NCBI GenBank assembly: GCA_051362555.1
Contig: CM120648.1
Coordinates: 535,721-599,720, forward strand
Direction: 5' to 3'
Length of the DNA stretch: 64,000 nt
Origin: Lingula anatina
Lineage: Eukaryota; Animalia; Brachiopoda
Position 1 is the stretch's first letter. Each line of letters begins with the position of its first letter. The translations under genes were made by a program, and so were the position numbers. Of the stretch, positions 13,901-62,666 are shown in pieces. A model generated the notes under the pieces. That model made no database searches. It saw nothing but the letters and a program-made list of their open reading frames with translations, and had not been told where the DNA came from.

Positions 13901-14746
13901 TTTTAATTTAAACGTAAAACTTCTTTGGTCAAATATATGGATAACTTCCTCCGCATTAATATGACTTTTCCCGTTGTTGATGGTGCAAGTTTTTTCTTCT
14001 TCTTTCAGGGTTGTGCCACTGTGATCCGAGCTCAGTTGTTCAGTTACCTATCCACCACGTACTCATTCTGTACTGTGCTCATTTGTGTACAGGTAGGCAG
14101 TGTTAGATTTCACTCGTTTCATTTAAAATGAAGACAGTCGAAAACTTCGTTTTATCTTCACTGAAATGAATTATCACTTAATGCGATTAATGAAATCTTT
14201 TTTATGATCAAGATATGGCTGAAATGCGTGTGTAGTATACTGGTTTGTTAAAAATAACGGTCATCGTTGTCTTTTTTAATTGCCTATTAAACCTTTGAAA
14301 TTAATTTGTAATGGGCACAATAAGAATAATAAAGAAAGGCCTATACAAGCCTTTAAAAATATTTTATTATTTTAGAAATTTAAGTTAGATAAGCATTATT
14401 TTTGTTTTTTGTTTTCAAGCTTGGCATCTGTGCGCTAACGTGGGCCTTAATGTTCATGTCACGATATTGTCACGCGGACCGCGTGCGCACCTTTTGGGCA
14501 GACGACAAGTATTCCGATGGCGAAAACAGCGAAGATGAACTTCTCAACGGCGGCCCTCATTATACGACATACGGGACAACGTTGTTAGGCGACGCCACAA
14601 GTTCCGCAGAGAAAATTCCCATGCCAGACATTAGTGGACATTCTATCAATACACCAACGCCTCCCAGGCCAGGCTACCAATCAGTGACGATCTCATATTT
14701 AGTGCCGGACGGGAATTCATTCCGTGCATTTGCCACTGACTTTTAA
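10597..14746 (+). CDS. Divergent tetraspanin-family protein (7 coding exons)
   Basis: Phase-0 exons 10597-10725, 12300-12506, 12783-12866, 13165-13266 (..KVWNTVQTQ), 13541-13666 (FLCCGIYNSSDW...VPKSC), 14009-14092 (GCATVI..TM4) and 14420-14746. Four hydrophobic segments; CCG, PxSC and GC motifs of the large extracellular loop. Confidence 0.88.
10853..10919. repeat. Compound (CT)n/(CA)n microsatellite
   Basis: Direct reading; tetraspanin intron 1. Confidence 0.95.
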
Positions 14747-14998: not shown

Positions 14999-15216
14999 AG
15001 ACTGGGTTTCCACAGATTTAGATCGATCCATCTGGATCGACCTAACTCCCTGGGGGTTCACGCTAAATTGCTGTCAGCCGAGCGCGCACGAAAGTTAATT
15101 ACTGCCTTACAGCTTTAAGTAGGCGGGACAGACATTTAAGCCAGCTAGGCTGACAGCAGTCTAGTGAGACTCCCCAGGGGGATAGATCGATCTAAAAATC
15201 TGTGGGAATGCAGTCT
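14999..15216 (+). mobile_element. MITE, copy 1 of a family also present at 36.2 kb
   Basis: Imperfect TIRs (AGACTGGGTTTCCACAGATTTAGATCGATC / GATCGATCTAAAAATCTGTGGGAATGCAGTCT). The internal sequence matches the reverse complement of 36176-36393. Confidence 0.8.
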
Positions 15217-17750: not shown

Positions 17751-17932
17751 ATGACCGCGCTGATGAAGACCATCCTGTTTTTCCTGGCCACGGTCACACT
17801 GGTACTCATGGTGCAGTCGCCGCTCCTGGTTCGCTCCTCCCCACAGCTCAGCTCCCAGTATTACGAGGTTCGCCGCTGGCTCCTGTGTGTTCACTGTCCT
17901 CCTAAGCAGTGTAGGAGCTATTACTGCTACGG
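17751..17932 (+). CDS. Secreted Cys-rich peptide family, member A: first coding exon (downstream exon uncertain)
   Basis: Acceptor CAG at 17743-17745, then ATG at 17751: MTALMKTILFFLATVTLVLMVQSPLLVRSSPQLSSQYYEVRRWLLCVHCPPKQCRSYYCYG. Signal peptide present; ends GG|GTGAGT (phase 2), as do members B-D. Confidence 0.8.
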
Positions 17933-20418
17933 GTGAGTAGAACAGTCTCTATTCAGGTTGCAGACGGGGGGAGGGGGGGGGGTTGACAGGAAGGCGGCTA
18001 TTTTCTTAACCGATCAAGATATATCAGCGTCATAAATATCAATAAGAAAGGTTATTTCAACAGCTATTCATTTTATTTCATATCATTATTATGTAATGGT
18101 TATAAGGAAATATAATATTATTATATAAAAAGATAGCCAAGTTCTTTTCACCAGCCCCTGTCTTCAGCCTTAAGTCCTTCCTGGGACCCGTTTTACAGAG
18201 GAAGAAGAAAAAAGGAACAAGGGAAAGAAAAAAAGTTGCGTTGATATTTATTTTAATATTCTTGATTTTATATACAATAAAGAGCAAATATCAAGTCTCT
18301 GACGCGCAAACTACCTACTCAACGTTTTTTCGGCTTGGAAGTTTAACCCCCCTGAACTCGTGAAATATTGGCTGTGTACTGTGCGTTTTTCGATCCTCCC
18401 GCAAGATGTCGCTATGTACTCAACACACCATACTGATTTTGACATTGCACGGTACGTTGGAGTTTCCTTTGATCACGTAGCCTCTGTCAAACCCTGAACT
18501 GTAAATGACTTTATAATTTGATAGAAAAGTTAGTCGTTTTTAAAGTGACTTAACGTGATGGTTTACGCAGGAGGCAATGCATTTCGACCCCTTAATAAAC
18601 CAGACCCTTTGATGAATGGTCTACGCGTCATGCCTTATAGGTAGAAAAGTATTAAAAATAACTGTATTAAAATTAGATTAAAAAACAGTTATTCTCTTTA
18701 GAAGCGATTAATCTTTTAAAGCCACCGTCTTGCAAGATACAAAAAAAAAAAAAAAAATAATAATAAAAAAAATAATAATTTCACAAGTTGAAATACAGTG
18801 ACCAGTTCAGCATTAAAGGTTTGAATGGAGACTTTGCCATTTAATTTACTTTACGTTTATTGTCTGTAAAAGACCCATCTAACATATACAGGTGCTAATT
18901 AAGGAACTGTAACAAAGATTCTGCTCTTATTAGATTCATAGAATAGGGTCAACGTGACAGAAGTGGGTCAATATCTCGGACGGGGTTTATCTGTACAAAT
19001 CAATGGAAGCCGGGTGCTGTATCTCAGCGGATTATCTCAATTAACTGCTGATTTTTTTTTGTTACAATCACAAGTTTCCAGTTATTGAGAGTTATATATT
19101 CGCACTGGCTAACCGTTCTTATTTTCATTATAATTTTCGTCAAGGGAATATTTTGGCTATTTTTTTGGTGCCAATAGCCTGGAGGTATTAGTTTGCCGAT
19201 GTTAGATTAATTGTATGATTACGACCTATTAGCCTTCTGTTGGCTCCAATATTCAAGCACAACGGAGATATGTGTAAACGCATGGTTCCACATTAACTGT
19301 TGCCCTAGTATCGAGTATGGGCGCCGTCAAAGTTCAAAGGTCAAAGACAAACATGGCGCTTCTCTCGTGCATTTTACTGTTGTGCAAACAAATAAATTAC
19401 AACAACTGTCATGTGTAATGGTTCAGAGGATAAAATACTCCCAGTGTCACGAAGATTAACGAAGCCGTCACTCTCGGTGGTCTTCCGGTCCTGTGATAAC
19501 TGTAAAGACTGGCTACAGACTTCACTGGGGCGATGTAAGTTTTTGCAGCTGCGCACACGGGTTCTGTTTTCCCAGCGCCAAAGAACTAATCTAATCCACT
19601 GGCATAACGTAAGTGGAACGAAATGGTAGAGTTGCGTCTGAGGCATGACGCCATTCATTCCATTAACTTTTTGTGTTCAGGCGCATCCAGCTCCGTTATA
19701 ACTAAAACCGTAGTTAGACTGTCTGCAGGAGACGGACGTTTTCGCTGGGCTCAGTCGCTATGTTATCACAGAGTTAACAAAGGGTGGGCATTTTATCATT
19801 GCGACAACTGCAACCAAATTATCCACTTTTTTTGCTTTAGTTTTAAAACGGCTATAGATAAAAAGGTGCTTTCCACAGCCTGGGTTTCGTTAGCGCTTTC
19901 ATTGGCGCGTTCTTGCGCGACTTTGCAACTGATATGCGTATCGGGGAAATTAAATCGTTAATTTCCTTACAGCAAGATGAGATTACATACGTCATTTATT
20001 GTGAACGACAACGTAAACTGTTTGAACTTTCAAAGGGAGGGAAAATAATCAAAATATCCGCACGAAGTTCGGTTGCAGTAAGGCTTAATAGCATAAAAAA
20101 TAGCTGTTTCAACTGATTAAAATTTAAGATGTGCATACTTCTTCAACTGTTGAATTAATATTGGCAAATGATGATGTACAGCAAAGGTAACTTGGACAAG
20201 GTGATATACCTGCCAAAATACTCGGAATGATTTTATCTTCATCATTGCTCACCCTTGTGGGTTTCTCAAATTGATGATTTGAAAATAAAACAAAGACATG
20301 GAGCTTTCTGGCAAGCGCGTTCTTTAAAAAAGCCATAGCATTTCAGGGGTTCTCTACGTGAGTGAAATGACCCGGCGGGGTCGAGCTACTTAATCGCTCG
20401 TTTTCTGCGTTTCTCATT

Positions 20419-20473
20419 TATAAAATTCATGCAAAGGAACAACTTCTGTTTGACGGCGAATTCTAAGGTACGT
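20419..20473 (+). promoter_or_regulatory. Candidate TATA box and short non-coding first exon of member B
   Basis: TATAAAA at 20419-20425 followed by AAG|GTACGT donor at 20467/8. Member B's ATG exon has an acceptor (21749), so a non-coding upstream exon is implied. Confidence 0.3.
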
Positions 20474-21764
20474 GTCCTTTTCCAATTTGTACGAAATCAC
20501 GTAAACTTTGACATTTATATTACATCACGTACAGTAAGTTATCGATCTGTGTGTGTTTATTTTTATAACTGTAAATGAACATTTTGCAATCGGTTGCTAC
20601 TCTCAATATCTAGAAATAATATAATCTCTACATGGTGTTCTTCAAAATCTATCGCTTGCGTACTTCATATAAAATGCCTTTCTACTGTGAATTATAGTAT
20701 GATAAATGCAATTTCATGACGTTGATTCGAGGTCACCTATTGTAATAACAATAATTCAGGTTTTGATTGAATTTATGCAAACCTTTTGAGTGCCTTCTTC
20801 TAAACATAAATTCAAGTATACGTAATATTTTTTCATCAATCCAGCGGTCACATGAGCCATTTCTGTAAACCTAAGAATACGAACCGTTTGTTAGGAAGGT
20901 CTGATTACATAGAAAATACTTGTAATGCTTTTTTTACGACCAGAATAGTGAAAACGAAAACCTTTAATGTGAAAATTTGTCTTACAAAACTTTGGTTACG
21001 CCGCTGCCAAATGTGGTATTTTCAAAGCAAAGGCGTCCGAATACCAAAAGATCTGTTCACAACGCTTTCACGCAGCCTTGGCTATAAATAACCCTTCGTT
21101 TAGTCTTAAAGTGTAAAAGAGGCAGATAATGGAATGAGTGACAGTAAAAATTCTCTTATGTGGTATTCCACAATTTGCCGATGTCTTCATACTTCCACAT
21201 TTTAAAATACAGTCCAAAACGATATTGTTTAATATCATTCCTTAAAGTAACTTTTGTCAATTTATTGGTATCTACACGTTTTCTATTTCACTTCCCAAAT
21301 TCAAGAAAAAAAAGAACTCCATAACACTGGAAGTAATTTTATCATTTCAAAACACCTTAAAAGTCCCCAGGAACATAGAAGGTACTATTTGGAAAATATG
21401 GATAAACCAGACTACGTTAATCAGACGATGTGGTCTTTAAATTTAATATGTAACTGGCATTCGTTCCCCATGTGGCAGTGATTGTAACGCCAGGTGAAAT
21501 ACTAGAATATGATCTAACTGAAATCTAATTAAATACACATGAAAGTTTACATCAAAGTGTTTAAAGTCAGACACGGTTACAAAGCGTTACATTCTAGATT
21601 AGGTTAAACATATCTCCACGCGGACCTTTTAACACAATACAGGCGGTTCAAAATATACAGAACACAGAAGCCGTAACTGAGACTTTATATGCCTGCCAAG
21701 ATAAAACTGAAACGATAATTGCCTGGTTCTTTCGATATTATCTGCATAGTGAGAAGACTCGGGT

Positions 21765-24411
21765 ATGGAGAGACGCTGTTACTGCCACGTAGCTGCATTT
21801 GTCCTAGTTTTCCTCGGAGTGATCCTGTCTTGGCACGTGGGGCCCGTGGAGACCCAGGGGCTGCACCCGTACTGGTATGATCAGCGCTACTGGATGAGAT
21901 GTCACTGTCCGCGCCATGTGTACAGATGTAATGAACTCTACGATTGTTTTGGGTAATTTTCTAGTAGTATATTCTGCTTCGTCCGTAGTTTGTTTTAAAG
22001 TATTGCTTTTGGAGCAAAATATTAAATATTACTATTATAAATTCTCTCAGGTTTAGCTCCCAATTATGAGCCTAACATCTAGAATCTAATCGTACTAAGT
22101 ATGCTCGACGATAGCAACCAAAATCAGCTTAAACATAAGCCCCAAAATCTCGAGTTACCCTCTCAAAAGTGGTGCTTCAAAATATTTTGTGTTTACAGTG
22201 AATACGCTGGTTTACTTTCTGTTTATTATACAAATTCAAGAACAATCTGAATTCATTTGAACAAATTCCAAATTTCTTTCTAATCTGGTCTTTAAGCGGT
22301 CCTCAAAGGCCATTTGGCGATGTCAATTAAAAATTTAATTACAGAAGTCATGCAAAGTCATGACTAAGACGGATACATGATTATATTTTTAGTGAAAAAA
22401 GTTATGCTTGCCCTCCTGCAAGGCTACAGTCAATAATCATTTAAATGGATTTTGGAGTAGTTTTCTTTTTTCAATTTCTTTTTGCACGTATGCGCTTTGC
22501 AGTGTGTGATCCAACACAGATTAGGTAGACTGAGGAAACAACGGGCACCATGGAATTTCTTGTTTTGAAAAAGATAATTGGCTTTGAAGGCTTTTTGTTT
22601 CTGTTTGATTTTAATTACTTTGGATGAATATAAATGAGGATAAATGAGGACAAGATAGTGATATGTGTTGGTTTTAGAGTGACAGAGGCACGGAGAGTTT
22701 TCTTGTGCAACTATGCTCATTCTATTTAACGTCATCAAGAGGGTTGGACTCCCAAGACGGAAGTACGTCGAGCTTATTGATGACCCTGACATTTTGTTTC
22801 TTTCACACTCAGTACACTTTAAGTGATATGTGAATAGAGAATACTTTTTTTTGCTTTATCTCAAATGCGCCCATGTAGCACAGGTGCTGAGGTTACTAAT
22901 GCCCCGATTTGGTGAACCTTTGGATGCACACTCAAATCGGTTGATTCGGGGCATAAGTAAGCTCGGCGGAAGAGACAAACTGTAAAGCTCACCATAAAAC
23001 TCAGCATGTTTTTTTTTTCTCTTGGGAGTCGTACCCCCTGGTGAGATTACACTACCCCAGGAAAATATGTACGTCTGTATAACATGGCCATTGCTTTGGC
23101 AGACTGTGTTATACAGATGTGACAGTGTTATACAGATGTGACTGTGTTATACAGACGTGACTGTGGTATATACAGATGTGACTGTGTTATATACAGACGT
23201 GACTGTGGTATACAATCACGTATGTGTAGTAAGACGAATCCCAGAATTGGTTAAGCAGAATAAAATAAGTAGAAAAGAATAACTTTATTGCAATATGTAG
23301 GGCACATTGATTGCAGTTGGGGGTGGGGGGGTGGGGGGTGGGGAGAGAAGTGTTTATCTCGGCAACTAAGGGATATACCTATCACCTCTGTGAACACTTC
23401 TGGATTCAGCCACGTTACCGTCTCACTTCCACGCTGAGCCAAAGATGGAGGCCTTTTACAGTATCCCTTTCAAGGTGTTGGAATGCCCAAAAGCCTTTAT
23501 GACCCGTAAAAACAACATCAGCAGCGTTCGTCTATGCTGCAGTTTTACTGTTAAATTTTTTAGCAACAGGAGGTAAGTTGTTCTATTAATATCATCGGAT
23601 CTGCCTTCGGGTTGAAATAATTATGGTACAGTTAGAGAATTACATGTGCATAAGATGTTATTAATTCTTCATTCCTTATTTAACTTTTTAAAACTATGCA
23701 AATGTCTTTTTCAGGTCTAGTTTAGTTTTAAAGAGGTTCTTATGTACCCTGTGTTTTGAAATATCATTGGCTGTTAAAGTACATCTATCAGAGCTACTAA
23801 ACTGATCTATTAAAAATACGTACAACGCCCGTAATCAACAACGACAGCGAAGTCACTTAACGTCTATTTATGTGCTAGGTCGAAGTGTTGTTTTTTTACG
23901 TACAAAATACGAGCACTGATGAAAACTTTCTCTAAAATTCGACTAAAATAGCTTAAAGATAATAGATCTCAGTCTACCAGTGGTTTTCCGAATGTCCACT
24001 AGGAGAGGTGACTCAGATTGCAATCACGGAAATATAAAATGTCATTCAGATTGATGTCGTATTTCCGAATTCTATGATGGCATACGGGACGCATGTGGCA
24101 TTTCCTATCCCTTATGTGAACACTTGGCCCGAGATTTGCTCTAAATGATTTTCCCGCCCATTCAATTTGTTTCTGAAGACTTTACTACTCGCCCCCCTCC
24201 CACACCCCTCACCCGCACAAAACCTATGTCAACTACCATTAAGACATGCTTTAAGCGGCAATATAATTAAGTGGGAACAGGATACGACATCTGTTTATTG
24301 AGCCAGAAACGCCTTCCCAAGTCGCGTGTGTCTCCTTTGCCGCTCACCGTGACTCAAGGCGCTTTGCTGGCGGCTGACATGTCAGGTTTTGGCACATATG
24401 TAGTATCTTAC

Positions 24412-24467
<56 letters not shown>

Positions 24468-26543
24468 CGATTATATGAGAAACTGCAACAGAAACAACTT
24501 AAACAACTTCAACTCTCGGTAAATCTACCATCGCTTTCACCCCAGTCATCATGCCAGCGGAAAAGCTGCAAGACACAGTTTTCAGTGAGAGCTATTCTAG
24601 GTTCTAAATAAAATAAAAATTTCTTTCAGCAACAGGCGTGAAGCCAGCCGTTTCAGAGGGTGGGGCTGGGGAGGGGTTCTGGAAAAGTGGAATTTTATTT
24701 ACCCCATTAGGTTACTCAAATGGCATAAAACAGATCACATTGTGATTCAGAACATAATTGCCCTACCAAAAGGGCGGTTCCTCTGACCCCCTGTCTACGG
24801 GAATGGGTAAAAAGACAAAATTTAAGTCTCTCGGCTGTTCTCTCCCACATCTCACATGTAATATCTTTATATCATCTGATATTGTCCAGTAAACATGCCT
24901 TTAAATGGTTTAAGAATTTTGAATTATTCATATTTCATCCAACGATAAATAAACTTGGTTTGGTGTAACCCATTTTTTTCTTTTATGAAACAAAATAAGC
25001 TTATAATTTTGAAATGGTTGGCTTTCCTAGTGGGCGGCAACGATGGGTTGTAATATCAACACCTCTTTCAAACTGTGGAGGTAATTTAGAGTTGACAGTT
25101 ATCGGTTCCTGGGGCGTCCTGAAGTACGATTGGCATGGACCTTTAAGGACAACACTTTCAGAACGGACTTCTTGGGTCAAAGCGTTAAGTCAAACGCAAT
25201 AAACGCGGAACACAGTCCAGTTAAGCTGCGATGGTATCTCAACTACTGTAGAACCGGGTTGATTTTGGGGCAAATCTGAAACATTGGTTACGCCAGCTTT
25301 AATCTGCTTTAAAAGAAGCTCAAGCGAAGTCCTGTTTACACCAAATGAAATTGTCGCATATCTTTGAAATTCAAAGTAAAATATTTCGTCTTATATACCT
25401 TCCCCAAATGTGCACTACTCAAGTTATTTGGTCATCTTTTTTCGTAGCTTGAAAACTGTTTAGTAGACATTGCTTATATCATTAATGGTTTTTTAGAAAC
25501 TGTCACTGCTGCATAGCAGAAATAAGCGTCTCTAGTTTACAAATTATTACGTACTTTTTAGTTAGATTAAAGCTGCGAGGCCGTTTATACTTTTGTCTTT
25601 TTTTTTGTTTTTGGTCATCTAATGTGGTAACTCAATTTTACAGTCTTTAAAACATTTTGTAAATAAGATACAGTAAGTTTCTCTTAAGAAACGTTTTAGT
25701 CCATTACATCTGTAATTGAAAGTCGCTTCCAGTATCAGTATAAATCATCATACTTCAATTTATGAAAACTACAACAGGACGAGTCAAAAGGTATACATTT
25801 TAATAGTAATTGGTGCCGTTAATCATTGTAGATTGCGCTGTGACTGTGACAGGTGTGGTTGCCTTCAGAACGCTTTCCCGGGTCCTCTTCACAACCTGCC
25901 GTGGTGGAACTCTTACTTCTATAACTACCACAATACTTTCCAGGGAAGGAAGAAAAGGTAAGTATTCCACACTGGGGACATGACAATCATTGTGACGTCA
26001 CTTCCTCCCTCCCTACGGATGACTTCCGACATTTGCTTTTTCGTTTTTGGTAAGGGTTTGTCCGAGGCAGTCAATTTAGTTTGGCAGCGGGAGGGGAGGG
26101 GAGTGGGGGGGGGGGGGGGGGGGGGGGGAAGAGGCCATGCCACCAAGGCAGTAACCTAATGAGGTGGTTAGTGGTTATGTAACGGCAGTACCAGGGCTAG
26201 ATTGAGGAAAGAGGGAGATTGTGAGCGGGAATATCATAAGATCATGCCTGCAAACTGTATGAGGCAGTGAGATGCTTTTGCCTAGCTGTTTTTATTTCTT
26301 ACAATCGGTAGGTCGAGGAATTAAATGTGAGAAAGGGTCTTTATTCCTTAAAAAAAAGAAGAAAAGAGAATGATCTGTGAATTGTTTTGTGACTTTAATG
26401 GTTATGCCAGAAGCAGTGGGATTTTAAAGAATCGAGAGTGTAGGAAGCCGTTTTGGCATCTAATTGACCCTGATGTCAATGCAGCACTTTTCTGTTTCAG
26501 GTCTGCAGCAGTTGACATGCCCTCAGATATAGAGACAAACTGA
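21765..26543 (+). CDS. Secreted Cys-rich peptide family, member B (3 coding exons)
   Basis: Exons 21765-21952, 25832-25957 and 26501-26543 give MERRCYCHVAAFVLVFLGVILSWHVGPVET-QGLHPYWYDQRYWMRCHCPRHVYRCNELYDCFG/LRCDCDRCGCLQNAFPGPLHNLPWWNSYFYNYHNTFQGRKKR/SAAVDMPSDIETN*. Phase-2 introns with canonical GT-AG. Confidence 0.82.
23101..23213. repeat. Minisatellite, 19-21-bp unit (TGTGACTGTGTTATACAGA)
   Basis: About 6 tandem copies in member B intron. Confidence 0.9.
24415..24465. repeat. Poly-A tract (~50 nt)
   Basis: Direct reading; no flanking TSD recognised. Confidence 0.9.
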
Positions 26544-28979
26544 GAGTCTGGCTTGTCTTGTCCGTGGGCCGCTTAACACATCACGCCATTGTAGTTATAT
26601 GCAGCTTTGTATTCTAAAGCCAGGGATGAAGAAACTGTAAATTTGGAGTTGAATTTCTGCTGTCGTGATATATATATATATAAGCACTATCAAGGAATGC
26701 TTTGGCTTGGTATTACATGAAAAACGGCTCCCGTTATAAGCATTTTTGTTTGTTTGTTTTACATATTTTGCGTGATGATTCGTGTATACATGCCTTAAGT
26801 ATGACGACTTCCTAGTCATATCGTGAGAGGATTCTTCTCTCGGAGTAAGAAATGTTTTAAATCAAACATAAAATGATAAAATGGAAAGTATAAGACATCA
26901 AGTAGTGTACCGATACATAGCTGTTAAATGATGTATTCTTTTACTTTGTTATTATTTGATATAAATGTATAGATGCCATAATGTGTTCTAAAATGTGTTG
27001 GCATTTACAGTTGTTAACCTTTGGCCATCACAGTGAAAATGACTAAAAGCGGAAATGGTTTATGTGACTGAGATTTTTGAAGGAACTTAAAACCTTTACA
27101 ACTGTGATACGCAGCGTCTGCCGGAAATGCCTCAGAACAATTTGTACTTGTGATTGTCTAGTGTAGAATTTGTTGTAACTTAAAGTCACTCTTTTTTTTA
27201 ATTTAAGCAAACGCTTCTCCACGTGCTACACCCTGAGTTTCCGAGTTTATGGATGAAAACACAAGTGCTTGTTGAATGTAGAGGAAAGTTTCGTGTGGTC
27301 TCTGAAACTCAGGGGGGATGATGAATAACGTTATCTTTCTTATTTCTGCAAACACTTTTATTTCTTTTTGTATAGTAATAATGGAAACGATACTTACTTT
27401 GTATAGAGCTATTGAATACTTTTTCTTGGTAATGGTTTAGTGCAGCTTTTCCACGGACTTTTCCTTACTTATACTCATTGACAGAATCCGCCATTTCGCT
27501 TAAAACCATTTACGTTCTTACAAACGTGATTTTAAAACACAATTTACCAAAAATATGTAAATTTGAATAAGCAAAGCAAAACTTCTCAACATAGAAGAAA
27601 ACCATGCCAGATACAATTTTTTCTTAAAGAACACCAGCACACATTTTAAATATATCTGCACGAAATGCTCTTGCTGAAACTGCTGTAAATTAAAATTTTC
27701 CTTTTTTCTTTTTCTCTCCATTTTGTAAGGTGATATGACTATGAGTGAAATCTCTTGTAAATTGTAGAGTACTCGTTAATATGTAGCACCATGTGCTGTA
27801 AATGCTGTCAGTTTCTTCACGCGGTAATAAAGGTGTCACCAATTATTGGATTTATTATTTATTTATCTATCTATTAATCTATCTATTAATTTATATTTTG
27901 GGGACTATTCTCAAACTTTCACATTAAAAAATAAAGAATAAATGCTTTTCTTTTAAATTTTTGTATATTGAACAAAGAAGTATTTTTAAAGTTGTATTTT
28001 TGGAGTTTCGAATGACCCCTTGCCTTGCTGGTGGCACAGTTTGATTGTGACAGATGTGACAGATGTGGTCGCAGTGCACTTGTCCAACCACCGTCTCAAC
28101 AACCGCAATGAGCCCATTCTTCTTCTCCGAAACAATGTTTTTACGGGCATTCAAAATAACTCGTGATATAGCTAACTTGTAGAGACCTCTGTCTCAAACC
28201 AAAGCATCAGCATGAGATCTCAGTATTATCCCAACTTAAGTTTACAACAACTGAATCAACCAAAACCTTCAAAACTGAAAGTACGTAGAAATATTAGCTT
28301 TTTAGTTTATTGTCCGTCTAATAAGCATTTTAAAGTTACATTCTTCCCCGGTCTTAGTGTGTAAAAACAATCCACCATGTTATTAAATGTAAATGGAACG
28401 TATTATAAATTCGTGACCTTGTCTTCATAAACACACGAAAACGCGGATTCAATCTTTGAATAAACAAAAAAGATGACGAAATAAAATGTAAAATTTTATT
28501 TCAAATATATTCCCAAACAGTCAGATTTTGAAAGCCTTAACACTGTTGCCCGTGAGGTTAAAATTGAGGTATACAGCGTAGTCATGGCAACCCTTGCAAC
28601 CTTCCTACAGGCTTGTGTTAAACTTTAAAATATTCTTATTAGAACAATCAGCTTATTCCTTCGGTTGACTGAGTTTGGCACTTTCTTAACGGGCGAAGAT
28701 TTTTTAAACGTGAATCCTTTTCTTCACTCATGAAGAAGCATCCTTTCCGTTTCAAGCTGTAAAAAAACCCTAAAATATATTATACTTCTTTTTTTCCTTA
28801 TGTAAATTACAAAAAAGAGATTTATCAATTTTTTAATAAAAATGTGTCAGTTTTTAAGCTAATCTTCTTATTCAAATAATTATACAATGGTAATGAAGCT
28901 TGAATACCATATTTATAGAGACTAATTTCAATAGTAAAAAAATGATAAGAAAAAAAGAATCAGCTACCTGTGGCTCCCT

Positions 28980-29441
28980 CTATCCAGAGCGGGATTGACT
29001 GTTCTGATAGTTCCACAGGTAGAGACGGTACAGGTAATTGGAATCTGAAGAACCCGATCCCTTTCCTTTGCTTCCACGTCTGAAGTAGTAGGGCGGGTAT
29101 GCGTAGTTAGCGTGTCGGTAGTAGCTGTACCAGTTGTATGGATACGTACCAGGAGCGGAGTAAGGGGCGGCGGCCTGAGCCGAGGCAGAGTCGAAGCAGC
29201 TGCAACGTGCCGGATCACAGGCGACACTGGAGAAGAAAAAAAGCAGATCATCCAACAATGCACATTTTGTGGTGTCTGTTTTTTTTTATTTGCTATTTGC
29301 GTTTTTTTTTACCTTAAACTGCGCCAGAATTCAGCGTTTCCAGGTTATCAGAATTAGCCATATTGTTTTAGACTACTTTCCCAAAAAACCAGCCCCCCAT
29401 GTAGCCCGCCCACACGCACACACACATGCACTCACGCACAA

Positions 29442-29531
<90 letters not shown>

Positions 29532-29690
29532 TCCCGTTCATACCTACCCGTAGCAGTCGTAGCCCCTGCCCCCGGGACAGACAGCGGAGTTATAGGGAGC
29601 AAAACAGCGCAGCCATCTTCTCTCCTCCACTGCTCCAATCAGCTGTGCCGCCGCCATCAACACCACCACAACGGAAGCGTAGACCTGCAT
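28980..29690 (-). CDS. Secreted Cys-rich peptide family, member C (6-Cys variant, 2 coding exons)
   Basis: Exons 29690-29548 and 29226-28980 give MQVYASVVVVLMAAAQLIGAVEERRWLRCFAPYNSAVCPGGRGYDCYG/VACDPARCSCFDSASAQAAAPYSAPGTYPYNWYSYYRHANYAYPPYYFRRGSKGKGSGSSDSNYLYRLYLWNYQNSQSRSG*. Donor GG|GTAGGT, acceptor TTCTCCAG. Confidence 0.85.
29445..29528. repeat. (CT)n microsatellite in member C intron
   Basis: Direct reading. Confidence 0.95.
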
Positions 29691-29703
29691 CCTGGCGGTC
29701 AAG

Positions 29704-29705
<2 letters not shown>

Positions 29706-29761
<56 letters not shown>
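29706..29761. repeat. (AAT)n microsatellite just upstream of member C's acceptor
   Basis: Direct reading. Confidence 0.95.
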
Positions 29762-29762
<1 letters not shown>

Positions 29763-32272: not shown

Positions 32273-32402
32273 CTTATTGAAAAGAGGCTCCTCTTGGTCA
32301 ATAATTGCAGCTTGTCGCAAAAGTCCCCGTAAGCTCTAAGTTCCTCCAAACCGTCGACCACACTTCATCAGCAAGAAATGTTACGTGATATTTCCTTTTA
32401 TA
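32273..32402 (-). promoter_or_regulatory. Candidate TATA promoter and non-coding exon 1 of member C
   Basis: Minus-strand TATAAAAGG from 32402, then AAG|GTACTG donor at 32273/2, about 130 nt downstream. Member C's ATG is directly preceded by an acceptor (CCGCCAG|G ATG). Confidence 0.45.
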
Positions 32403-33025
32403 CGCTCCGGTGCCATCGATACATTGCATCTCAAAATATTCACACGTGACTTAAAACAACGGTCTCTCGACCCTACGCAAATGTAGCAGACTCGAATTAA
32501 ACCATTTTTCAACGGGGGATACGTGTCACTAGTTTGGTTATCAAATAAACGAGGTAACTAGACGGCGTTGGGTTTTTGTCGATTTGTTTAAGTATAAAAG
32601 TTTCTTTTTCTGAGTCAAAGCTCCTCCCAGGTTGATTAATGGAGTAAGGAATAGCCAAAGGGGTGGGGTGGTGCTCGAAAAGTGAATTTCACAAAGTATT
32701 TTTTATAATCACTGTATAAAGTGCATTTTCTCTACTTTATCTCTTACAGAAAAATACTGGGCGTGAAAGAGTGGTAAAGCGTACTCTTATTCAAGAAAAA
32801 TATGCTTTTACACGCTAAGGAGCCAATTGGAATCTTAATTTATAATATTTATATAAAAGAATGGATGCATCTTCATGACATGGAAATAAGAAACCAGCCG
32901 CAAGTGTTATATTGAACGGAAAGCGCGTAATAGAAAAAAATGAACAAAACGAAATTCCCATTATTATTCCTAAACAAAGTTTTAGAAATCTATTACTGGT
33001 CTCATAATTTGGTCTAGTGGACCAT

Positions 33026-33073
<48 letters not shown>

Positions 33074-35562
33074 ACTTCAGCTGGTCTTAAATTGTTCTCA
33101 TTCTTTATATTATATCTGTTTATTTTAATACCACTAGATGACATATCTACTGAATATTATTCATGGTTGTTATTCGTTAAGCGCTGCGCTCCCTCTGTCA
33201 TTGTCATTTATCTAAATCTTAACCTCTGTACCTTTATCAACAATTCACTTTTTAAAAATGTGTAAAAACGTGTATCAAAATAGCTTTCATACTATCATAT
33301 CTCGTAAACCCAGCGTCGGGTAAATTACCAGTGGCAAATGCCTTAACCTTTCTTAAAGCAGCCTCGTCAGCAGAAGGAAAAAAAACGCTCTGGTTACTAC
33401 GAGAAGTTAACCAGTAGCGTTGGGTAATTACACAGTGATTAAGTCATTCCGAAGAGAAAGCAGTTGTTTTCGACAGCTGCCCAAGTCAGCGTGCCAATCT
33501 GTGGCTACAGTTGGTATAGGTTTACTAATTCAGGGCAAATTACGAAACGGAATCGCTCATGATAGAGGTGAAGTATGCAATGATGTGTTTAATTAAGAAC
33601 TCAGTTGTACTTTGAACTCGTCTGATAGCTAAATAGTTCAAGAATTCTGTTTTTGGTACCAAACGTCTGACTTAAAACAAAGGTGGGTCTTAAAACTGTG
33701 ACGAGTCTACAGGGATTGCGAGAGAGAGAGAAAGAAAGAGCGAGAGAGCGAGGAAAGTGTGTGTCCGTCTGACTGAGAGAGAGAGAGAGAGAGAGAGAGA
33801 GCAGAGAAAGAACAGAGAGCCATGTAACCAACCAAACACTTATTCTCATTACCAACATTCCTGGCATCTCTACCACGTAATCACATTAGTTATTTCATTG
33901 CCGTCGTCCGGTGGGGTTCCCATTGGAGCTGACAGTAATGGCTTTTTTTGTGACGGACTCTTTTAAAAATAAAACCTTATCCACTTCTAACTACCCCGGG
34001 AAAAAACCTCTACCTACGAGTCATTGACAGGACGTAAGCAAACAAACGCTGTAATTCTACACAAAAAGTAACGTTCACCGTTCGCCTTACTGCTATCACA
34101 CTCATTATGGTCTTGTCTGATATAAATGAATTACCTGTCCAAACTTTGCTCTGTCACATTTAATTGTGTTGACCTCAGCCCACCCAAATTTAAGTATCAA
34201 TTCGGTTTATATGTTAGCTAGAAGCTGGGGTAGTTTTTTTTAAACTGACGTGAACAAATGGTATCTAATTGTTCGTTGCAACAGCAGTAACTGGTGCTTT
34301 CTGAAAGACAGCACGCTTTTGATCGAGGGCATGTGACATCATTTCCGTAGTAAAAGCACTGGGGTAGGATCTCCTCGATTTGACCCCGAAAATCCCAGAT
34401 AGGATTCTTTTTCGTAGCTGGCACGAGTTGGTTGTGTAGCTTGGTTAAATCTGGTTGTGATAGCCGTAGGCCCCGAAAGTTTGCACCGCTCGCCCAGGTT
34501 GAGGTGACAGCAGAGATTGCGGTGCGTTATCTTTCTCAACTGAAACACTACACCACTTCTCGGCAAACCGCAAAATCGGTCTTCCAACACAACCGACGCC
34601 CTTGGGTTGATTATGGTCTGACGTCATAGTATGACGTCATCACCACCCTAAAAATCGTATGCAATGTTTATCAAAGTAAGTATTCTGGATTATAATCAAG
34701 TGTTTGCATTTGATGGTGGGAAGTATTCTCAAATGTTTAAAGGTTTGAAACAGTACATGTGCGTGGTCCTCAACCTACGGCGGCTCTATTTTGAATAATT
34801 ATGCATTGACATGACTTAAGGTTTGAACGTTTTTTTTTTAGTTCAGATGAGGATGTTTAGTCCTGTTTATTTCAATGACTGAAACACATCTTATAAGCAA
34901 CTCTGCATCAGGATTACTTATAAAACAGGGATACGATATTATACAAAAAGTTTCAAGGCGAGAACTGACAATTTACATATTTCTGTCCTCTCAAAGTTAT
35001 ATAAGAATTTGAAAACAGATATCGAACAGTCAATAAATATAATGGTTATATTATATAACTCAGTTTAATTATTTTCGTACAAGTGCGCTTTCTTCTCTCT
35101 ACTGAAGTAAAAATAAAACAACTTAAATTCAGGCTGACATTGTACATGTATTTGAGACCTCTTTCGTTCCTTCACATGCCTTAAGCCATTCACAAAACTA
35201 TGTATAAATACATAATCAAATAGTCCTCATTCGTGCGTGAACGACCCAAGCTTCGGCGAAGTTAACAAGTGATTAAACAATTTTTCAAGGTCGGTAAAAT
35301 AAAGTACTTTTAAAATAGCAAACTGGCGAGATAAAAAAGTCTGCAATTTGACTTTTCACGTTTGCACTTTTAAGTATTCGCGAGCGCAATTTAGACGGTA
35401 TCCCGATTCTCTTCAGTTTAGGGTAGAGTGGATTTTTCTACGTAGACGTTAAGGTAATGGAGCTAGTTTGTGGTCGTCTTAACACGTGTTAACATTACGG
35501 TGTCTCGGCAGGTTGTGAAGTGGTGCCATACGTGCTACTATGTGGCTGGCACAGTTCCAGGC

Positions 35563-35602
<40 letters not shown>

Positions 35603-36175
35603 AGCTTGGACAGCGCTTCTACTTATCCAAGTATCGGTTGAGATGACGTCACCATGCAAGCAACCATGATGAGGCCGGTAGCCAGCGATTTCAAAGGAGG
35701 CCTTTTAAATGAAAAAAATGATCCTACCACTTCAATTTTCTCAACTTCAGACATCGCCTATAGGTCTTAGATTTTTTATTCAGGGCCTTTCCTACAAAAA
35801 AGGCGGTTTCTTCTTTTCGTTTTCATTTTTGAAAATTGGTTTAAGCCGAATGAACGGGCACAGCATGGCATGTACTTTTTTATTTAGATTTTAAAACAGG
35901 TGGTGAATTTTTATTAACTCAATAAAATATAAGACTGTCTTTTATAAAGAAATGTGAAGTCAGAAACGCAGCAAAAAACACAATTATTGCTCCTTCAAAG
36001 CTGCCGCCGTAGTTCTGGCGATGTGCCAGCTACAGGAGCGTGGCAAATAAACGCAACACCTTGAGGCACCTTAGCGCGTTCCAGTCATTTGATACTTTGA
36101 CAGCTCCGTAGCCTGTTTTACAAAGTAGTCCTAACCCGCGGCTGGGCGTTCACTTTTAGTTTTAGACAAGAGGCT

Positions 36176-36393
36176 TAGGCTCTGTTCTCACAACTTTTAG
36201 ATCGATCTATCACCGCGGGGAGTCTCACTAGATTACTGTCAGATAATCCCCCTTAAGTGTCCGTCCCCGCCTACTACAAGCTTTAAGGGGTAATTAACTT
36301 TCGTGTCCGCCCGGCTGACAGCTATTTAGCGTGAACCCCCAGGGAGTTAGGTCGATCCAATGTAGGTCGATCTAATCTATGAGAATGGGGTGT
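36176..36393 (-). mobile_element. MITE, copy 2 (inverted relative to 15.0-15.2 kb)
   Basis: Contains reverse complements of GATCGACCTAACTCCCTGGGGGTTCACGCTAAAT..CTGTCAGCCG and of CTAGTGAGACTCCCC from the 15-kb copy. Confidence 0.8.
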
Positions 36394-36503
36394 TAGTCTT
36401 ATTTCACCCTAGATTAATCAGAAGCCGGTTTAACGAAAGGGATAGTCCTGGTTTAATCTTTTAGAGCCAAATTTTAGTCTTTTTGTGACTCAATGTAAAT
36501 CAG

Positions 36504-36508
<5 letters not shown>

Positions 36509-36577
<69 letters not shown>
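36509..36577. repeat. (TA)n microsatellite
   Basis: Direct reading. Confidence 0.95.
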
Positions 36578-36579
<2 letters not shown>

Positions 36580-37005
36580 GTAAAATATATGGTCTAAATG
36601 TTAAGGCCAATCTTGTTCAAGTGGTCTACAACCAGTACCTGTCCAGTTATCAGTGTTGTGCACTTCCCTCTTATTTTGAAAAAAAAATTGTTTTGCATCT
36701 TTCTACCAGCTCTCCCTTTTTACCAATCAGTCTTTTTCCCCTCGGGCCAGCGTCCAGTTAATATCAAGGATGGTATTAATACCGTTTGCATCTATTGTAT
36801 GCCTTTAACATCAGCTGCCCCTCCCTCCCAAAAAAGTTTTCTCAGCCTTAGTCCCTGGTTTTACACATTCAGTTTTTATGTTAGTGTTGTTTTGCTGTCC
36901 AAAACAAAATGGCGGACTTATTTACCGTCCTTTGTATATAAGTGGAGATGATATGTTCTGTAGTTCCAAAAATAACCCAAATCCAAATTGCCCCTTTTTT
37001 GCAAA

Positions 37006-37040
<35 letters not shown>

Positions 37041-39565
37041 AGAAATAAATAACTGAAGGGGAAAGCTTAACCATTTGCTTTTACCTCTTCTCGTCACGCT
37101 GGCCCCGCCAGTATCTTTTATTTGGTGACCTACATGTACAACAACAACAACACGTTTCAAGCTAACTGTCATGTTTGCCAAAATACTGCCACTTTTACAA
37201 AATTCACTTCTAGTTGGTTAAGTTTGATAAACACAAAACATGTGACACAACATGAGCAATAAATGATAGGTCTATTGCCCGTTTAACATTGGGCAGTCGA
37301 TACAGTACTGAAATAAATGCCATTACACGAGCCAAGGAAGATAACTGTGTTAAGATTACGAAAGAGCGTTGTCTTTAACAAGAATATTGCAAAAAACAAC
37401 CGCAGGCGCTGTGTTGATTCATTCAAAGTGTTTGAGGGTTGCCGAAAACAACCCAGGTCACGAATGAGCTTCTAAAGGAAATGAGTAACACGTTTACTTC
37501 CGACCGATCAGCTGGTTTAATATTTGCTTGTTAGCCCTACACTAAGAAAATATCAGAGAGGACATTTTTCTTAAATTAATGACCTATTTACCTCTTATTT
37601 CATCGTGCATAGAGAATGGTCCAGTGGAACTTGATAAATATCATTTTCACTATCAATAACGAAGACTGTAACTTTTAGATAAAATAATTTATGAGGTACC
37701 TGAATACAAAAAGTAAATTAAAATACCGCTCGTCATAATTATATCCACAGACGCTACATAATATCTAGCGGTAAAGCTATTAATTGATTTAATTCCTTCA
37801 CAATCATAATTCGTTCCAGAAATTTTGACAGCAATGGTCGCATCAGGTTTGTTGTCAAAACCGTCATTCCAAAAAGCAATGTTGATAGGAAAAGGTATTA
37901 TGAGTCTAAGACGACAGAACAAATAGAGCAATATAGCATGCGTTTGGCTCTCAAATTGTCCACCGCACTGGATAATCACTTTGTATTATTATTATTATTA
38001 TTATTAATCATTTTTAATGGAAAAATGTCGATGAAGTGAGCCGTACTTAGTCAACCAAAGAATGGAAGGGTATGCTCGGCAGGTCGGCGTTCAGAGTTGT
38101 TTAAGAGGGAACATGCGACTTGCTTCTTGAGGCTGATCCAATTGTCTGCTGACATTTGAGAAAGTAAGCGTGTCTGGCGAAACTAAATGAAACCGCGTGA
38201 AAATATTTATAAAACGTTTCTTTTATTGATCATTCGCTACCGCTATACATTGAGGTCTACCTGAACTTAAGGAAGTTGCCGTCTACACATATAACAGAAT
38301 CCATCATATACATTCCAATAGTAATCTTTGGAACACGTCCTTTTATCGGTCTTAAAAATCTACACACACAGCAAACCTTGTACTTCCGGTTGTATGGCGT
38401 GTGGTCCAGTGGAGTCAATTAGCGTCTCTGTCTAGCTCTTATCCTCTGCTGTGAGTGCTTCCATCAAGTAACAGTTACTGCCTTTAGACCCATTGCCATA
38501 AACTCTGCTAAACTCACTTAGTATGGAACTGAACATCATAATACTGAAACACGTCATACTTAGCATATGCCAAAGAGAAGATTGGTATTAAACCATAGGT
38601 GATACTAATATATTTGACCCTCTATGGCATGCAGAGTTGTGACTTATAATATCAAAATCTGGAACGTCTTTCCAATAATTTTTTAACTCCAATCCAACAT
38701 CCTGTCACTGACCCATAAATGCAATTCTGGTAAACTTGACTTCTATGATTCAATAAGTTAGAAATAAAATTGCAATGCTTAATTTTTTTTTCATAATAAA
38801 ACACGCACCATGATTCACCGATTGAGGGTTGCATTGCCGCTCAAAGCATCGTGTAGCTCTACAAATTAACGCACGGTAGCATCACCCCAGGTAGGTTTCA
38901 TAAACAACCTCAGCCCAAACACCGGTCTAAACATTTCAGTATTTAGTCAATTACATTTCTAGATTACCATAGTTGTCTAAACATATTAAATACGTATTGG
39001 TCTAAAACGCAAGCAACCGCTTTTCTTGTTTTAGAACAGGTATGATATCTTATTAGATTAGACTACTACTGAATTATGTTGAGCCAAACTAGACGCAATG
39101 TAGTCTAAAATGTTTTTCGGGCGAAAGTGTTTGTGAGACAGGCCCCCGTATGGTATCTTTTAAACGGCGTTTTCACTGCAGCAGTGGATACATTCAGCAT
39201 TGTGAATTGTCGAATTGATTTGAGAGGGACAGTTAAATCTTCCATCCTGAATATCAGGTTTGTAATTACATGTTGCCTTTTGAGTCTTTTAAGTCATAAC
39301 TTTCAGATATGAGCATAAGATTCATATGAATAATTCGTACATTTTTCCTATTTTTCCCGGCTTCTTGGTAGATATTTTACAAAAAAATAACCAAACGTTT
39401 CATGAACTTGATAAAAATGATATTCTGTAAAAATATCGCAATAAAAGATTTGAGTAAAATTATCAAACACACGACAATACGAACAACAACCGGTTAACAC
39501 ATACATCTAAATAACCTATTATCTAACTCCTCAGCAGACGCCTGTGATATTACCGCCACCTTCAT

Positions 39566-40646
39566 TCACTGTTTTCCCGCCAAACGCTGCATGACGTCAT
39601 CAGCCGCTCTCCTCCTCCTCAGCTGTCTGGCCACCTTGGTATTGTAAGTACCGAAGTATCTATGGAGATACAGCAGGTACTTGTAGTAGGTGGGAGGATT
39701 AATGGCCCCTGGGGTCTGGTAGTTGGGGGCGGGGGCCATGTTGGGAGAGAAGGGAGGATAGCGACGTTCGTTGCTGTAAGCCATGGCGAAGACGTCGTTG
39801 TGGGGGGCCTTGTAGAACTGGTTCTGGCGGCTAGGCCATGGGGCCACGATGCGCTTGGAGAGGCCACATCCACAGGTTGTGCAGTCACACTGGATACTGC
39901 AAGGGAAATATATCATATGATAGAATGGGAATAAAAGGCCCTAGAATATATATTTATGTGACGACCTTTTATACTTTTGTATACATGTTGTCGAAGAAAT
40001 GTGCCTTTACGAATATTAAAAAGTAAAGCCAAAAATTCACTTAGTTGTTTGGGCGTGAATGGCACAAAAAGCTGTAAAATTGAGGATGTTTCAATATATA
40101 TTTCACAAGTGTTTCTTGGGTATCACGGTTGATAAAAAGAATAGTACATAAAGCAACAATCCTTATTGGCAAGTTATTCAAGCAGTTGTTTTAGGGACAA
40201 CGTTAGAATAATAATGTTTTCTAATAGAAAGTTAAAACCATTATTTTGGAGTGGTAATGACTATGATTTTAAACTGTGTTTTGAATGAAACCAGTCAAAC
40301 ATTTTAACAAATGTACATGTATGCCTTACCTTGTTACATGTTAACTATCCAAAAAAGTAATCAATTTACAAGATACATCCCTCATATACTTAGCGCCAGG
40401 AAAGGTAAGGGACTATTTTCGTTGCTTTTTCTATTACAAAAACTATTCATAAACACAATTTAAAAATACTTACCCTTTACAGTGGTACTCAGATGGGCAC
40501 ACGGAGAAGTAGGGGGCGTACTTTGGACAGAAGCATTTCAGCCAGCGTATCGTGACGCCCTCTTCTTTACTGCTTTGAGCATCAAGTCTTTCCACCGCCA
40601 GGAGGAGAACTACAAGACAGCCCCAACTCAGCATTCCCTTGGCCAT
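39566..40646 (-). CDS. Secreted Cys-rich peptide family, member D (2 coding exons)
   Basis: Exons 40646-40474 and 39896-39566 give MAKGMLSWGCLVVLLLAVERLDA-QSSKEEGVTIRWLKCFCPKYAPYFSVCPSEYHCKG/IQCDCTTCGCGLSKRIVAPWPSRQNQFYKAP...PPTYYKYLLYLHRYFGTYNTKVARQLRRRRAADDVMQRLAGKQ*. Donor GG|GTAAGT, acceptor CCCTTGCAG. Confidence 0.87.
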
Positions 40647-49112: not shown

Positions 49113-49371
49113 GGCTTCGTTCACATGCAATGTCTATTTTCTATTTTCTATTTTCTATTTTCGGTATGTCTTATGATCACGGTCTGTGCACTGAATATCC
49201 CGCGGCGTAATTACTGGCAGCGCGAGCCAGTTACTATAAGTTACTATAAGTAACTGGCTCGCGCTGCCAGTAATTACGCCGCGGGATATTCAGTGCACAG
49301 ACCGTGATCATAAGACATACCGAAAATAGAAAATAGAAAATAGAAAATAGACATTGCATGTGAACGAAGCC
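49113..49371. mobile_element. Palindromic MITE, 123-bp perfect arms and 13-nt spacer, TAA TSD (PIF/Harbinger-like)
   Basis: 49113-49235 is the exact reverse complement of 49249-49371. TAA on both sides (49110-49112, 49372-49374). Termini GGCTTCGTTCACA. Confidence 0.92.

Positions 49372-62630: not shown

Positions 62631-62666
<36 letters not shown>

What the first reader, a model, noticed from the sequence alone, without database searches (positions are those of the whole stretch)
17751..40646. Cluster of four paralogous secreted Cys-rich/Tyr-rich peptide precursors of an unrecognised family
Seen: four units (A and B on plus, C and D on minus) that the ORF track shows only in pieces. Each has an acceptor just before the ATG, a signal peptide and an R-(R/Y)-W-[LM]-x-C or R-W-L-x-C start. 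Each also has a Y-x-C-x-G motif split by the same phase-2 intron in the Gly codon. Cores: A RRWLLCVHCPPKQCRSYYCYG/?; B RYWMRCHCPRHVYRCNELYDCFG/LRCDCDRCGC; C RRWLRCFAPYNSAVCPGGRGYDCYG/VACDPARCSC; D IRWLKCFCPKYAPYFSVCPSEYHCKG/IQCDCTTCGC. The framework is C-x1-2-C-x4-9-C-x4-7-C-x4-C-x-C-x2-C-x-C with hypervariable loops. Established: the layout of signal peptide, 8-Cys core and C-terminal extension recalls mussel myticin/mytilin precursors, but the Cys spacing differs. The CxC...CxCxxCxC spacing also resembles a metallothionein beta domain, yet metallothioneins have no signal peptide and almost no aromatic residues. Inference: a new family of host-defence or toxin-like peptides, secreted metal-binding peptides, or Tyr(DOPA)-crosslinked matrix proteins. 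Function cannot be decided from sequence alone.
Basis: partly seen in the sequence, partly recalled or inferred. Interest (0 to 1): 0.88.

Follow-up and report, generated by a model that had tools for sequence, protein, structure and literature searches.

The report
Orphan cysteine-rich peptide cluster in Lingula
The lamp shell Lingula carries a cluster of three complete genes and one partial gene for small, predicted secreted, cysteine-rich peptides that match no catalogued family we could search, and they likely serve in defence against microbes, though no function has been tested.

Summary
The window is Lingula anatina: unit D matches RefSeq XP_013393747.1, "uncharacterized". C is an intact two-exon gene without reads (0 of 4 runs). 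A is only a first coding exon, with no partner exon found and no reads over it (0 of 7 runs). The 8-Cys array (spacing 1, 6-9, 5, 4, 1, 2, 1) fits only B and D. C lost Cys2 and Cys6 together, which hints at a C2-C6 bond. Apart from D itself, searches of Pfam, PDB, 1.84 billion representatives and the ESM Atlas found no relative. The array fails the mytilin/CS-alpha-beta, CCWamide/agatoxin-like and metallothionein tests. Best reading (0.42): a Lingula-restricted family of convertase-processed, disulfide-bonded host-defence peptides, organised like mussel myticin precursors but not shown to be related. Against it: low expression, weak charge, divergent leaders and 4 of 4 synonymous changes in or beside B's core. 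Signalling, matrix and protease-inhibitor roles stay open. The key Lingula immunity paper could not be read.

The parts
17751..17932 (+). Unit A: first coding exon only (leader, short spacer, 4 Cys with spacing 2,4,4, ending in a phase-2 donor in the Gly codon). Open and coding-like (GC3 0.77); no second exon identified.
   Evidence: depth 0 in bin 17542-17912 in 4 of 4 runs and 0-0.05 in bin 17647-18293 in 4 of 4 runs
21765..21952 (+). Unit B, coding exon 1: leader, spacer, Cys1-Cys4 of the core
   Evidence: joint to 25832 in 10, 7 and 3 reads of X1, X2, X3
25832..25957 (+). Unit B, coding exon 2: Cys5-Cys8, aromatic tail, Gly followed by the start of an RKKR site
26501..26543 (+). The 3' UTR runs on to about 27900 (AATAAA at 27826, 27930, 27937).
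   Evidence: joint 25957 to 26501 in 7, 0 and 5 reads of X1, X2, X3
29548..29690 (-). Unit C, coding exon 1: leader, RR, three Cys (Cys2 replaced by Ala)
   Evidence: no depth in 4 of 4 runs
28980..29226 (-). Unit C, coding exon 2: three Cys (Cys6 replaced by Pro) and a Tyr-rich tail (14 Tyr in 71 residues); 321-nt GT-AG intron before it
   Evidence: splice predicted, not seen in RNA
40474..40646 (-). Unit D, coding exon 1: leader, acidic spacer, Cys1-Cys4
   Evidence: matches XP_013393747.1
39566..39896 (-). Unit D, coding exon 2: Cys5-Cys8, KR, Pro/Tyr-rich tail, RR, RRRR and a 13-residue end piece; 577-nt intron before it

Best explanation
These are paralogous genes of Lingula anatina for predicted secreted prepropeptides whose 6-8 cysteine core is likely disulfide-bonded, likely released by proprotein convertases, and likely acts as a host-defence peptide. 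SHOWN: the gene anatomy; paralogy of B, C and D; splicing of B; a RefSeq model for D; no relative in the collections searched. INFERRED, step by step: (1) the leader sends the chain into the secretory pathway. (2) The cysteines oxidise; the joint loss of Cys2 and Cys6 in C points to a C2-C6 bond, and the simplest full pattern is C1-C5, C2-C6, C3-C7, C4-C8, which would link each Cys of the first exon's half to the matching Cys of the second exon's half. (3) Cleavage at the conserved Arg (RR in A and C) before W-[LM]-x-C and at downstream basic sites (KR, RR, RRRR in D; RKKR in B, after a Gly that would allow amidation; RR in C) would free a 32-37 residue, weakly cationic (+2 to +3), aromatic core and one or more Tyr/Trp/Pro-rich tail peptides. 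(4) The core would bind microbial surfaces or act as an immune modulator, as is proposed for the weakly charged myticins. A is most likely a partial duplicate or a gene whose 3' exon is missing here; use as an alternative first exon is not excluded.
For: Anatomy, charge and basic sites. B splicing. D model. B and D both end in a 13-residue piece after a furin-type site. A C-x(3-9)-C-x-G gamma-core-type signature is present in B, C and D and by inspection in A; the motif is common in Cys-rich defence peptides but degenerate (PMC5116183, passages). Mussel defence-peptide genes share the non-coding first exon (myticins: PMC7356231), an intron just before the ATG, a signal/mature/dibasic/extension layout, amidation by a Gly and pseudogenes (myticalins: PMC5577615). 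The mytilin-type i,i+4 pairing (PMC7168163) is the pattern compatible with the C2/C6 co-loss. Myticins have charges from -2 to +4, and pseudomyticins lose a cysteine pair. The family is clustered, lineage-restricted and patchily expressed.
Against: No activity data. The cores are only weakly cationic, and the tails are neutral to cationic (+1, +5, +12), not anionic as in mytilins. Leaders are poorly conserved (15-33% identity) while cores are conserved (44-56%), the reverse of the conserved-signal, hypervariable-mature pattern reported for myticalins. Four of 4 changes in or beside B's core are synonymous (17% of possible single changes are), unlike myticins under positive selection. B is lowly expressed (about 3.5 reads per kb per million in X1, my estimate); tissues are unknown. 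The C2-C6 bond rests on one paralog. The AlphaFold model of the D core is only middling (pLDDT 67.7, pTM 0.34) and gave no connectivity or fold match.
Confidence: 0.42

Rival explanations
1. A lineage-restricted signalling peptide family (neuroendocrine or paracrine prohormones): the processed Cys core and/or the amidated tail peptide would bind a receptor.
For: Convertase and amidation sites, conserved core with divergent leader and tail, synonymous-only changes in the core, low expression. Spiralians have 8-Cys neuropeptides (CCWamide; PMC8557429 section 9).
Against: Four core motifs and the accession are absent from the supplement of a neuropeptide survey that included the L. anatina transcriptome. 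No relative was found in other animals. The CCWamide features are not met.
Confidence: 0.2
2. Extracellular matrix or adhesive proteins: the Tyr/Trp/Asn/Pro-rich tails would condense or cross-link (DOPA, quinone tanning) in periostracum, pedicle cuticle, chaetae or egg coat, with the Cys core as a linker.
For: Aromatic residues make up 8 of 45, 18 of 71 and 15 of 99 tail residues in B, C and D. The likeness to mussel foot proteins is recalled, not tested.
Against: D's accession is absent from the 2026 shell proteome tables, which list XP accessions (97 proteins). Core motifs are absent from the 2015 genome paper's supplement. The tails are short, not repetitive and barely alignable. B and C have no accession, so they could not be tested by id; non-shell matrices were not covered.
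Confidence: 0.15
3. Knottin-like serine-protease inhibitors: the loop after Cys2 (C-P-R in B, C-P-K in D, A-P-Y in C) would be the reactive site.
For: From Cys2, B reads 6,5,4,1,4 (skipping Cys7), close to the squash-type array C-x6-C-x5-C-x3-C-x1-C, in which an Arg/Lys at P1 marks trypsin inhibitors (PMC7565491, passages).
Against: Under knottin pairing, Cys2 and Cys6 are not partners, so C's co-loss would leave two free cysteines; C's last two Cys are one residue apart. No Pfam or PDB sequence hit to such inhibitors at E up to 1 or 10. D's first loop is 9 residues.
Confidence: 0.12
4. Secreted metal-thiolate peptides derived from a metallothionein beta-type domain.
For: The array starts with CxC and ends with [CxC]x2[CxC], as does the nine-Cys D1b domain of sea-spider metallothioneins (bioRxiv 10.1101/2025.01.04.631296, passages). 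The core is 18-25% Cys, and B and D carry His.
Against: Neither the D1a nor the D1b array matches. Cys counts are even, with a paired loss. The cores hold 5-6 aromatic residues, the whole protein is only 5-8% Cys, and there is a signal-like leader. No Pfam metallothionein hit.
Confidence: 0.06

Closest known systems
Mussel myticins and mytilins (CS-alpha-beta defence peptides)
   Same: Signal + 8-Cys core + C-terminal extension; non-coding first exon (inferred here from the acceptors); members that lose a cysteine pair; weak charge as in myticins; i,i+4 pairing compatible with the C2/C6 co-loss.
   Different: No CxxxC helix motif and a different array. The core is split by a phase-2 intron, whereas myticins encode the mature peptide on one exon. 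Tails are not anionic. No within-species hypervariability seen. No sequence hit.
Myticalins (linear Pro/Arg/Tyr-rich mussel peptides)
   Same: Intron just before the ATG, dibasic site, Gly-based amidation, C-terminal piece, pseudogenes. D's tail is Pro/Tyr-rich and cationic.
   Different: Myticalins are linear peptides with a conserved signal peptide and a pI above 11; here there is a Cys core and the leaders are divergent.
CCWamide / agatoxin-like neuropeptides
   Same: Signal, spacer, basic site, eight Cys; ending C-x4-C-x-C-xn-C-x-C in the CCWamide sequences seen.
   Different: No adjacent CC; the core is not on the last exon or at the C-terminus; no terminal amidated aromatic residue; the intron lies inside the core.
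Squash-type inhibitor cystine knots
   Same: B's spacing from Cys2 and a C-P-R/K loop resemble them.
   Different: Two extra Cys; the co-loss in C contradicts knottin pairing; no sequence or fold hit.
Metallothionein beta-type domains
   Same: CxC start and [CxC]x2[CxC] end.
   Different: Eight or six rather than nine Cys, aromatic-rich, leader and long tail; arrays do not match.

Membership tests
Mytilin / myticin (CS-alpha-beta) | Mytilin array C-3-C-3-C-4-C-11-C-1-C-1-C-2-C, or any CxxxC...CxC helix-strand motif | tested here: not met
   No match in A (half core), B, C or D. Array from PMC7168163; the CxxxC rule is recalled.
Mytilin / myticin (CS-alpha-beta) | Mature peptide encoded on one exon | tested here: not met
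   Phase-2 intron between Cys4 and Cys5 against the myticin exon 3.
Mytilin / myticin (CS-alpha-beta) | Signal + Cys core + C-terminal extension | tested here: met
   B, C and D; the leader was judged by hydrophobicity only.
Mytilin / myticin (CS-alpha-beta) | Anionic extension (mytilins) | tested here: not met
   Tail charges +1, +5, +12; only B's last 13 residues are acidic (-3).
Mytilin / myticin (CS-alpha-beta) | C1-C5, C2-C6, C3-C7, C4-C8 disulfides | tested here: inconclusive
Host-defence peptides (functional class) | Antimicrobial or immune activity; haemocyte expression or induction | not testable with these tools
   The runs are coded and carry no tissue label.
Host-defence peptides (functional class) | Gamma-core C-x(3-9)-C-x-G signature | tested here: met
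   B, C, D by script, A by inspection; degenerate motif, exact spacing recalled, motif described in PMC5116183.
CCWamide / agatoxin-like peptides | Adjacent CC; mature peptide on the last exon; C-terminal amidated aromatic residue | tested here: not met
   No CC; core split over two exons and followed by 45-99 residues; criteria from PMC8557429.
Squash-type knottin inhibitors | C-6-C-5-C-3-C-1-C-n-C with I-IV, II-V, III-VI and Arg/Lys at P1 | tested here: inconclusive
   B is one residue off and has C-P-R; D's first loop is 9; C contradicts the pairing; no hits.
Metallothioneins | Nine-Cys D1a/D1b-type arrays; protein up to 30% Cys | tested here: not met
   Arrays unmatched; whole proteins 5-8% Cys; definitions.
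Metallothioneins | Metal-thiolate binding | not testable with these tools
   Needs mass spectrometry of metal complexes.
Lingula shell matrix proteins | Detected in the shell proteome | tested here: not met
   For D only: accession absent from the PMC13425148 supplement. B and C have no accession; a B core motif was also not found, but the table seen lists ids, not sequences.
Any Pfam family | Profile hit at gathering score | tested here: not met
   0 of 7 exon translations pass; best E 0.041 (EGF_PEAR1L, 14.3 against cut-off 37.5); full D none at E 10.

The most novel reading that the evidence does not exclude
A new four-disulfide scaffold, neither CS-alpha-beta nor knottin, built from two four-Cys halves on separate exons and paired rung by rung. 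A serves as an alternative variable first exon spliced to B's second exon (same phase 2, 7.9 kb apart), so the animal assembles different defence peptides from exon halves.
Probability: 0.12. Interest if true: 0.8.

Novelty: new variant of a known kind. Interest (0 to 1): 0.5.

Why it matters
The paper searches here turned up no lineage-specific cysteine-rich defence peptide for lingulid brachiopods; big defensins are reported for another brachiopod subphylum (PMC7203481). A family with its own cysteine array gives concrete, synthesisable candidates of about 35 residues and possibly a new small disulfide scaffold. C is a natural six-Cys variant that helps assign the bonds. A, B and C were not found in the protein collections, although B is demonstrably spliced, so the locus is under-annotated. 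Orphan cysteine-rich peptide families are common in marine invertebrates (general knowledge), so the kind of finding is not surprising, and its value depends on function.

Tried and rejected
Homologue searches: D exon 2 (1 hit of 1 candidate), profile A1 (1 of 1600 candidates) and profile A3 (1 of 131) each returned only D's own RefSeq protein. The HMMER scan of 1.84 billion representatives gave D plus three hits at E 3e-5 to 2e-4; these are repeat proteins whose weak stretches add up, one SWIM-finger-like, and were rejected. The profiles came from exon fragments, were imperfectly aligned, and A1 covered mainly the first exon, so sensitivity to distant relatives is limited. Alignment A4 mis-paired the halves and was not used for searching. 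PDB sequence searches: nothing below E 0.77. AlphaFold on full D was unusable (pLDDT 41.3). The D core model matched nothing by Foldseek or VIA-align, which for 43 residues shows nothing either way. ESM Atlas: no usable feature hit, structure rows all TM under 0.5; B exon not searchable. No RNA holder was listed for the D stretch. A's second exon: candidates between 17934 and 21760 fit neither profile nor pattern. An exon-2-like stretch near 28037-28110 is out of frame with its AG and not significant (nhmmer E 1.9; third of 1694 windows). No fifth paralog in the window. No NF-kB-like site near the units (3 in the window, all below 12.6 kb). No DNA-level similarity among the loci beyond short repeats. 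No whole genome was held, so paralogs elsewhere were not searched. Gerdol et al. 2018 (PMID 29278680, Lingula immune system) is not held. The PMC9484238 supplement held only 2,055 characters and is uninformative. Three look-ups in earlier findings were empty.
Full report
1. Organism and status. A search with D's second exon returned one protein, XP_013393747.1 / LOC106161355, 'uncharacterized protein' of Lingula anatina, 167 aa, alone in its 90% cluster. It equals the spliced D predicted here except at residue 95 in the tail, so the window is likely another haplotype or assembly of this species. No whole genome was held.

2. Anatomy. All four first coding exons are as described. Each has a YAG acceptor 1-15 nt before the ATG, which implies an upstream non-coding exon that I did not locate. 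Each has a hydrophobic leader (no SignalP), an Arg one or two places before W-[LM]-x(1-2)-C, and Y-x-C-x-G cut in phase 2. B (118 aa), C (129 aa) and D (167 aa) are complete open frames. Core spacings are 1,6,5,4,1,2,1 (B), 1,9,5,4,1,2,1 (D) and 8,7,4,4,1 (C, six Cys). By alignment C has Ala for Cys2 and Pro for Cys6. A has four Cys (2,4,4) and stops at its donor. The shared motif occurs 4 times against 0.01 on average in 100 shuffles; the motif was derived from these units, so this is generous. B-C, B-D and C-D core scores exceed all 2000 shuffles. A's do not (54, 17, 294 of 2000), but a profile without A finds it at E 0.0035, ahead of every unrelated segment among 3412.

3. RNA. Nine runs were listed, 7 were laid, and 6-30% of each was read. 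B's first joint appears in X1, X2 and X3 (10, 7, 3 reads). A second joint, to a third coding exon at 26501, appears in X1 and X3 (7, 5; 0 in X2). X4, X5, X7 and X9 show no joint. Coverage runs on to about 27900, near AATAAA signals. My rough level for B in X1 is 3.5 reads per kb per million. A has no depth over its exon and no listed joint in 7 of 7 runs; all listed joints into 25832 come from B's donor. C has no depth in 4 of 4 runs. Tissues are unknown, so blanks for A and C do not show that they are silent. The reads differ from the window at five coding sites of B. Four, in or beside the core, are synonymous, and one changes the acidic end piece. Only 50 of 288 possible single changes in that stretch are synonymous (transition bias ignored). 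This points to purifying selection on the core.

4. Relatives. Two profile searches (1 hit of 1600 and 1 of 131 candidates) and a full HMMER scan of 1.84 billion representatives returned only D; three further rows were repeat artefacts. A, B and C therefore seem absent from these collections. Pfam, PDB sequences and the ESM Atlas gave nothing usable. The profiles were shallow and built from fragments, and brachiopod transcriptomes may be poorly represented, so distant relatives are not excluded. A single-sequence model of the D core (pLDDT 67.7, pTM 0.34) shows an N-terminal hairpin, a short hairpin around the conserved Gly and one helical turn. It matched nothing, which is uninformative at this size.

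5. Mechanism. Shown: the anatomy, paralogy and splicing above. Inferred: secretion, disulfide formation, and cleavage at basic sites. D has KR just after the core, then RR and RRRR. B has Gly before RKKR, an amidation signal by the rule described for myticalins. B and D both end in a 13-residue piece. The paired loss in C suggests C2-C6; the simplest completion is the i,i+4 ladder known from mussel peptides. The intron divides the core into two four-Cys halves that each begin with CxC, so the lost pair is the equivalent position in each half; this symmetry is my inference from three sequences. I commit to host defence (0.42) because the layout, the acceptor before the ATG, clustering with a partial copy, lineage restriction, aromatic and cationic cores and the C-x-G signature fit that class. 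The evidence against is substantial: charge only +2 to +3, non-anionic tails, leaders less conserved (15-33%) than cores (44-56%), synonymous-only changes in B's core and low expression. These keep signalling (0.20), matrix or adhesive (0.15), protease inhibitor (0.12) and metal binding (0.06) open.

6. Unit A. It is open, has GC3 0.77 in a window of about 38% GC and keeps both splice signals, so it does not look long decayed. No second exon was found before B. Options: a recent partial duplicate, an exon missing from this assembly, or an alternative first exon for B's second exon (same phase, 7899 nt). None is shown.

7. Comparison. It fails membership of mytilins/myticins (array, exon layout, tail charge), CCWamide/agatoxin-like peptides (no CC, core not terminal) and metallothioneins (arrays, composition); the squash-knottin test is inconclusive. 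It likely works like a mussel-type defence prepropeptide without being shown to be related to one.

8. Literature seen. Passages only: PMC7168163, PMC7356231, PMC5116183, PMC5577615, PMC7203481, PMC9835746, PMC7565491, bioRxiv 10.1101/2025.01.04.631296. Passages plus supplement searches: PMC4595640, PMC13425148. Passages, section 9 and supplement searches: PMC8557429. Supplement search only: PMC9484238 (62, tiny file). Other papers were seen as search listings only. D's three accessions occur in 0 papers of the library. Searches showed no description of this family in their listings. Gerdol et al. 2018 on Lingula immunity could not be read and may cover these peptides; figures and bioRxiv supplements were not visible. 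Recalled, not from calls: the CxxxC/CxC rule, the gamma-core spacing, the likeness to mussel foot proteins, and that orphan Cys-rich families are common in marine invertebrates.

9. Verdict. A real, partly expressed, apparently undescribed family with its own cysteine array; a new variant of a known kind; interest 0.5. The bold case, a two-half scaffold with exon swapping, has probability 0.12 and would merit 0.8.

Noticed in passing
window 4700-5974 (-): A long single open frame (424 codons stop to stop) with a polysaccharide pyruvyl transferase domain (PF04230, E 3.4e-18). An intronless gene of this mainly microbial-type family (recalled) in an animal; a horizontal or retroposed origin was not examined.
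   Followed up: no
window 51800-63000 (+): Exons of a SVEP1-like gene (Sushi, HYR and ephrin-receptor-like Cys domains) with an internal tandem duplication of about 4.1 kb including introns, 78-90% identity in most aligned blocks.
   Followed up: no
window 28037-28110 (+): A stretch resembling the start of B's second exon, out of frame with its AG and not significant (nhmmer E 1.9; third of 1694 windows). It may be a decayed exon or a short tandem repeat.
   Followed up: yes
window 36180-36400: A highly transcribed dispersed repeat: hundreds-fold depth with many loose ends in all 4 runs laid; inverted copies at 15033-15197.
   Followed up: no
window 49107-49377: A near-perfect inverted repeat (129-nt arms, 98%, 13-nt spacer), MITE-like.
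   Followed up: no
window 12195-14746 (+): Exon-like frames of a probable membrane-protein gene upstream of the cluster; no Pfam hit for the two frames scanned.
   Followed up: partly
window 25958-26500 (+): B has a phase-2 intron inside its RKKR site, whereas D encodes the equivalent site and end piece without an intron: an intron gain or loss within the family.
   Followed up: partly
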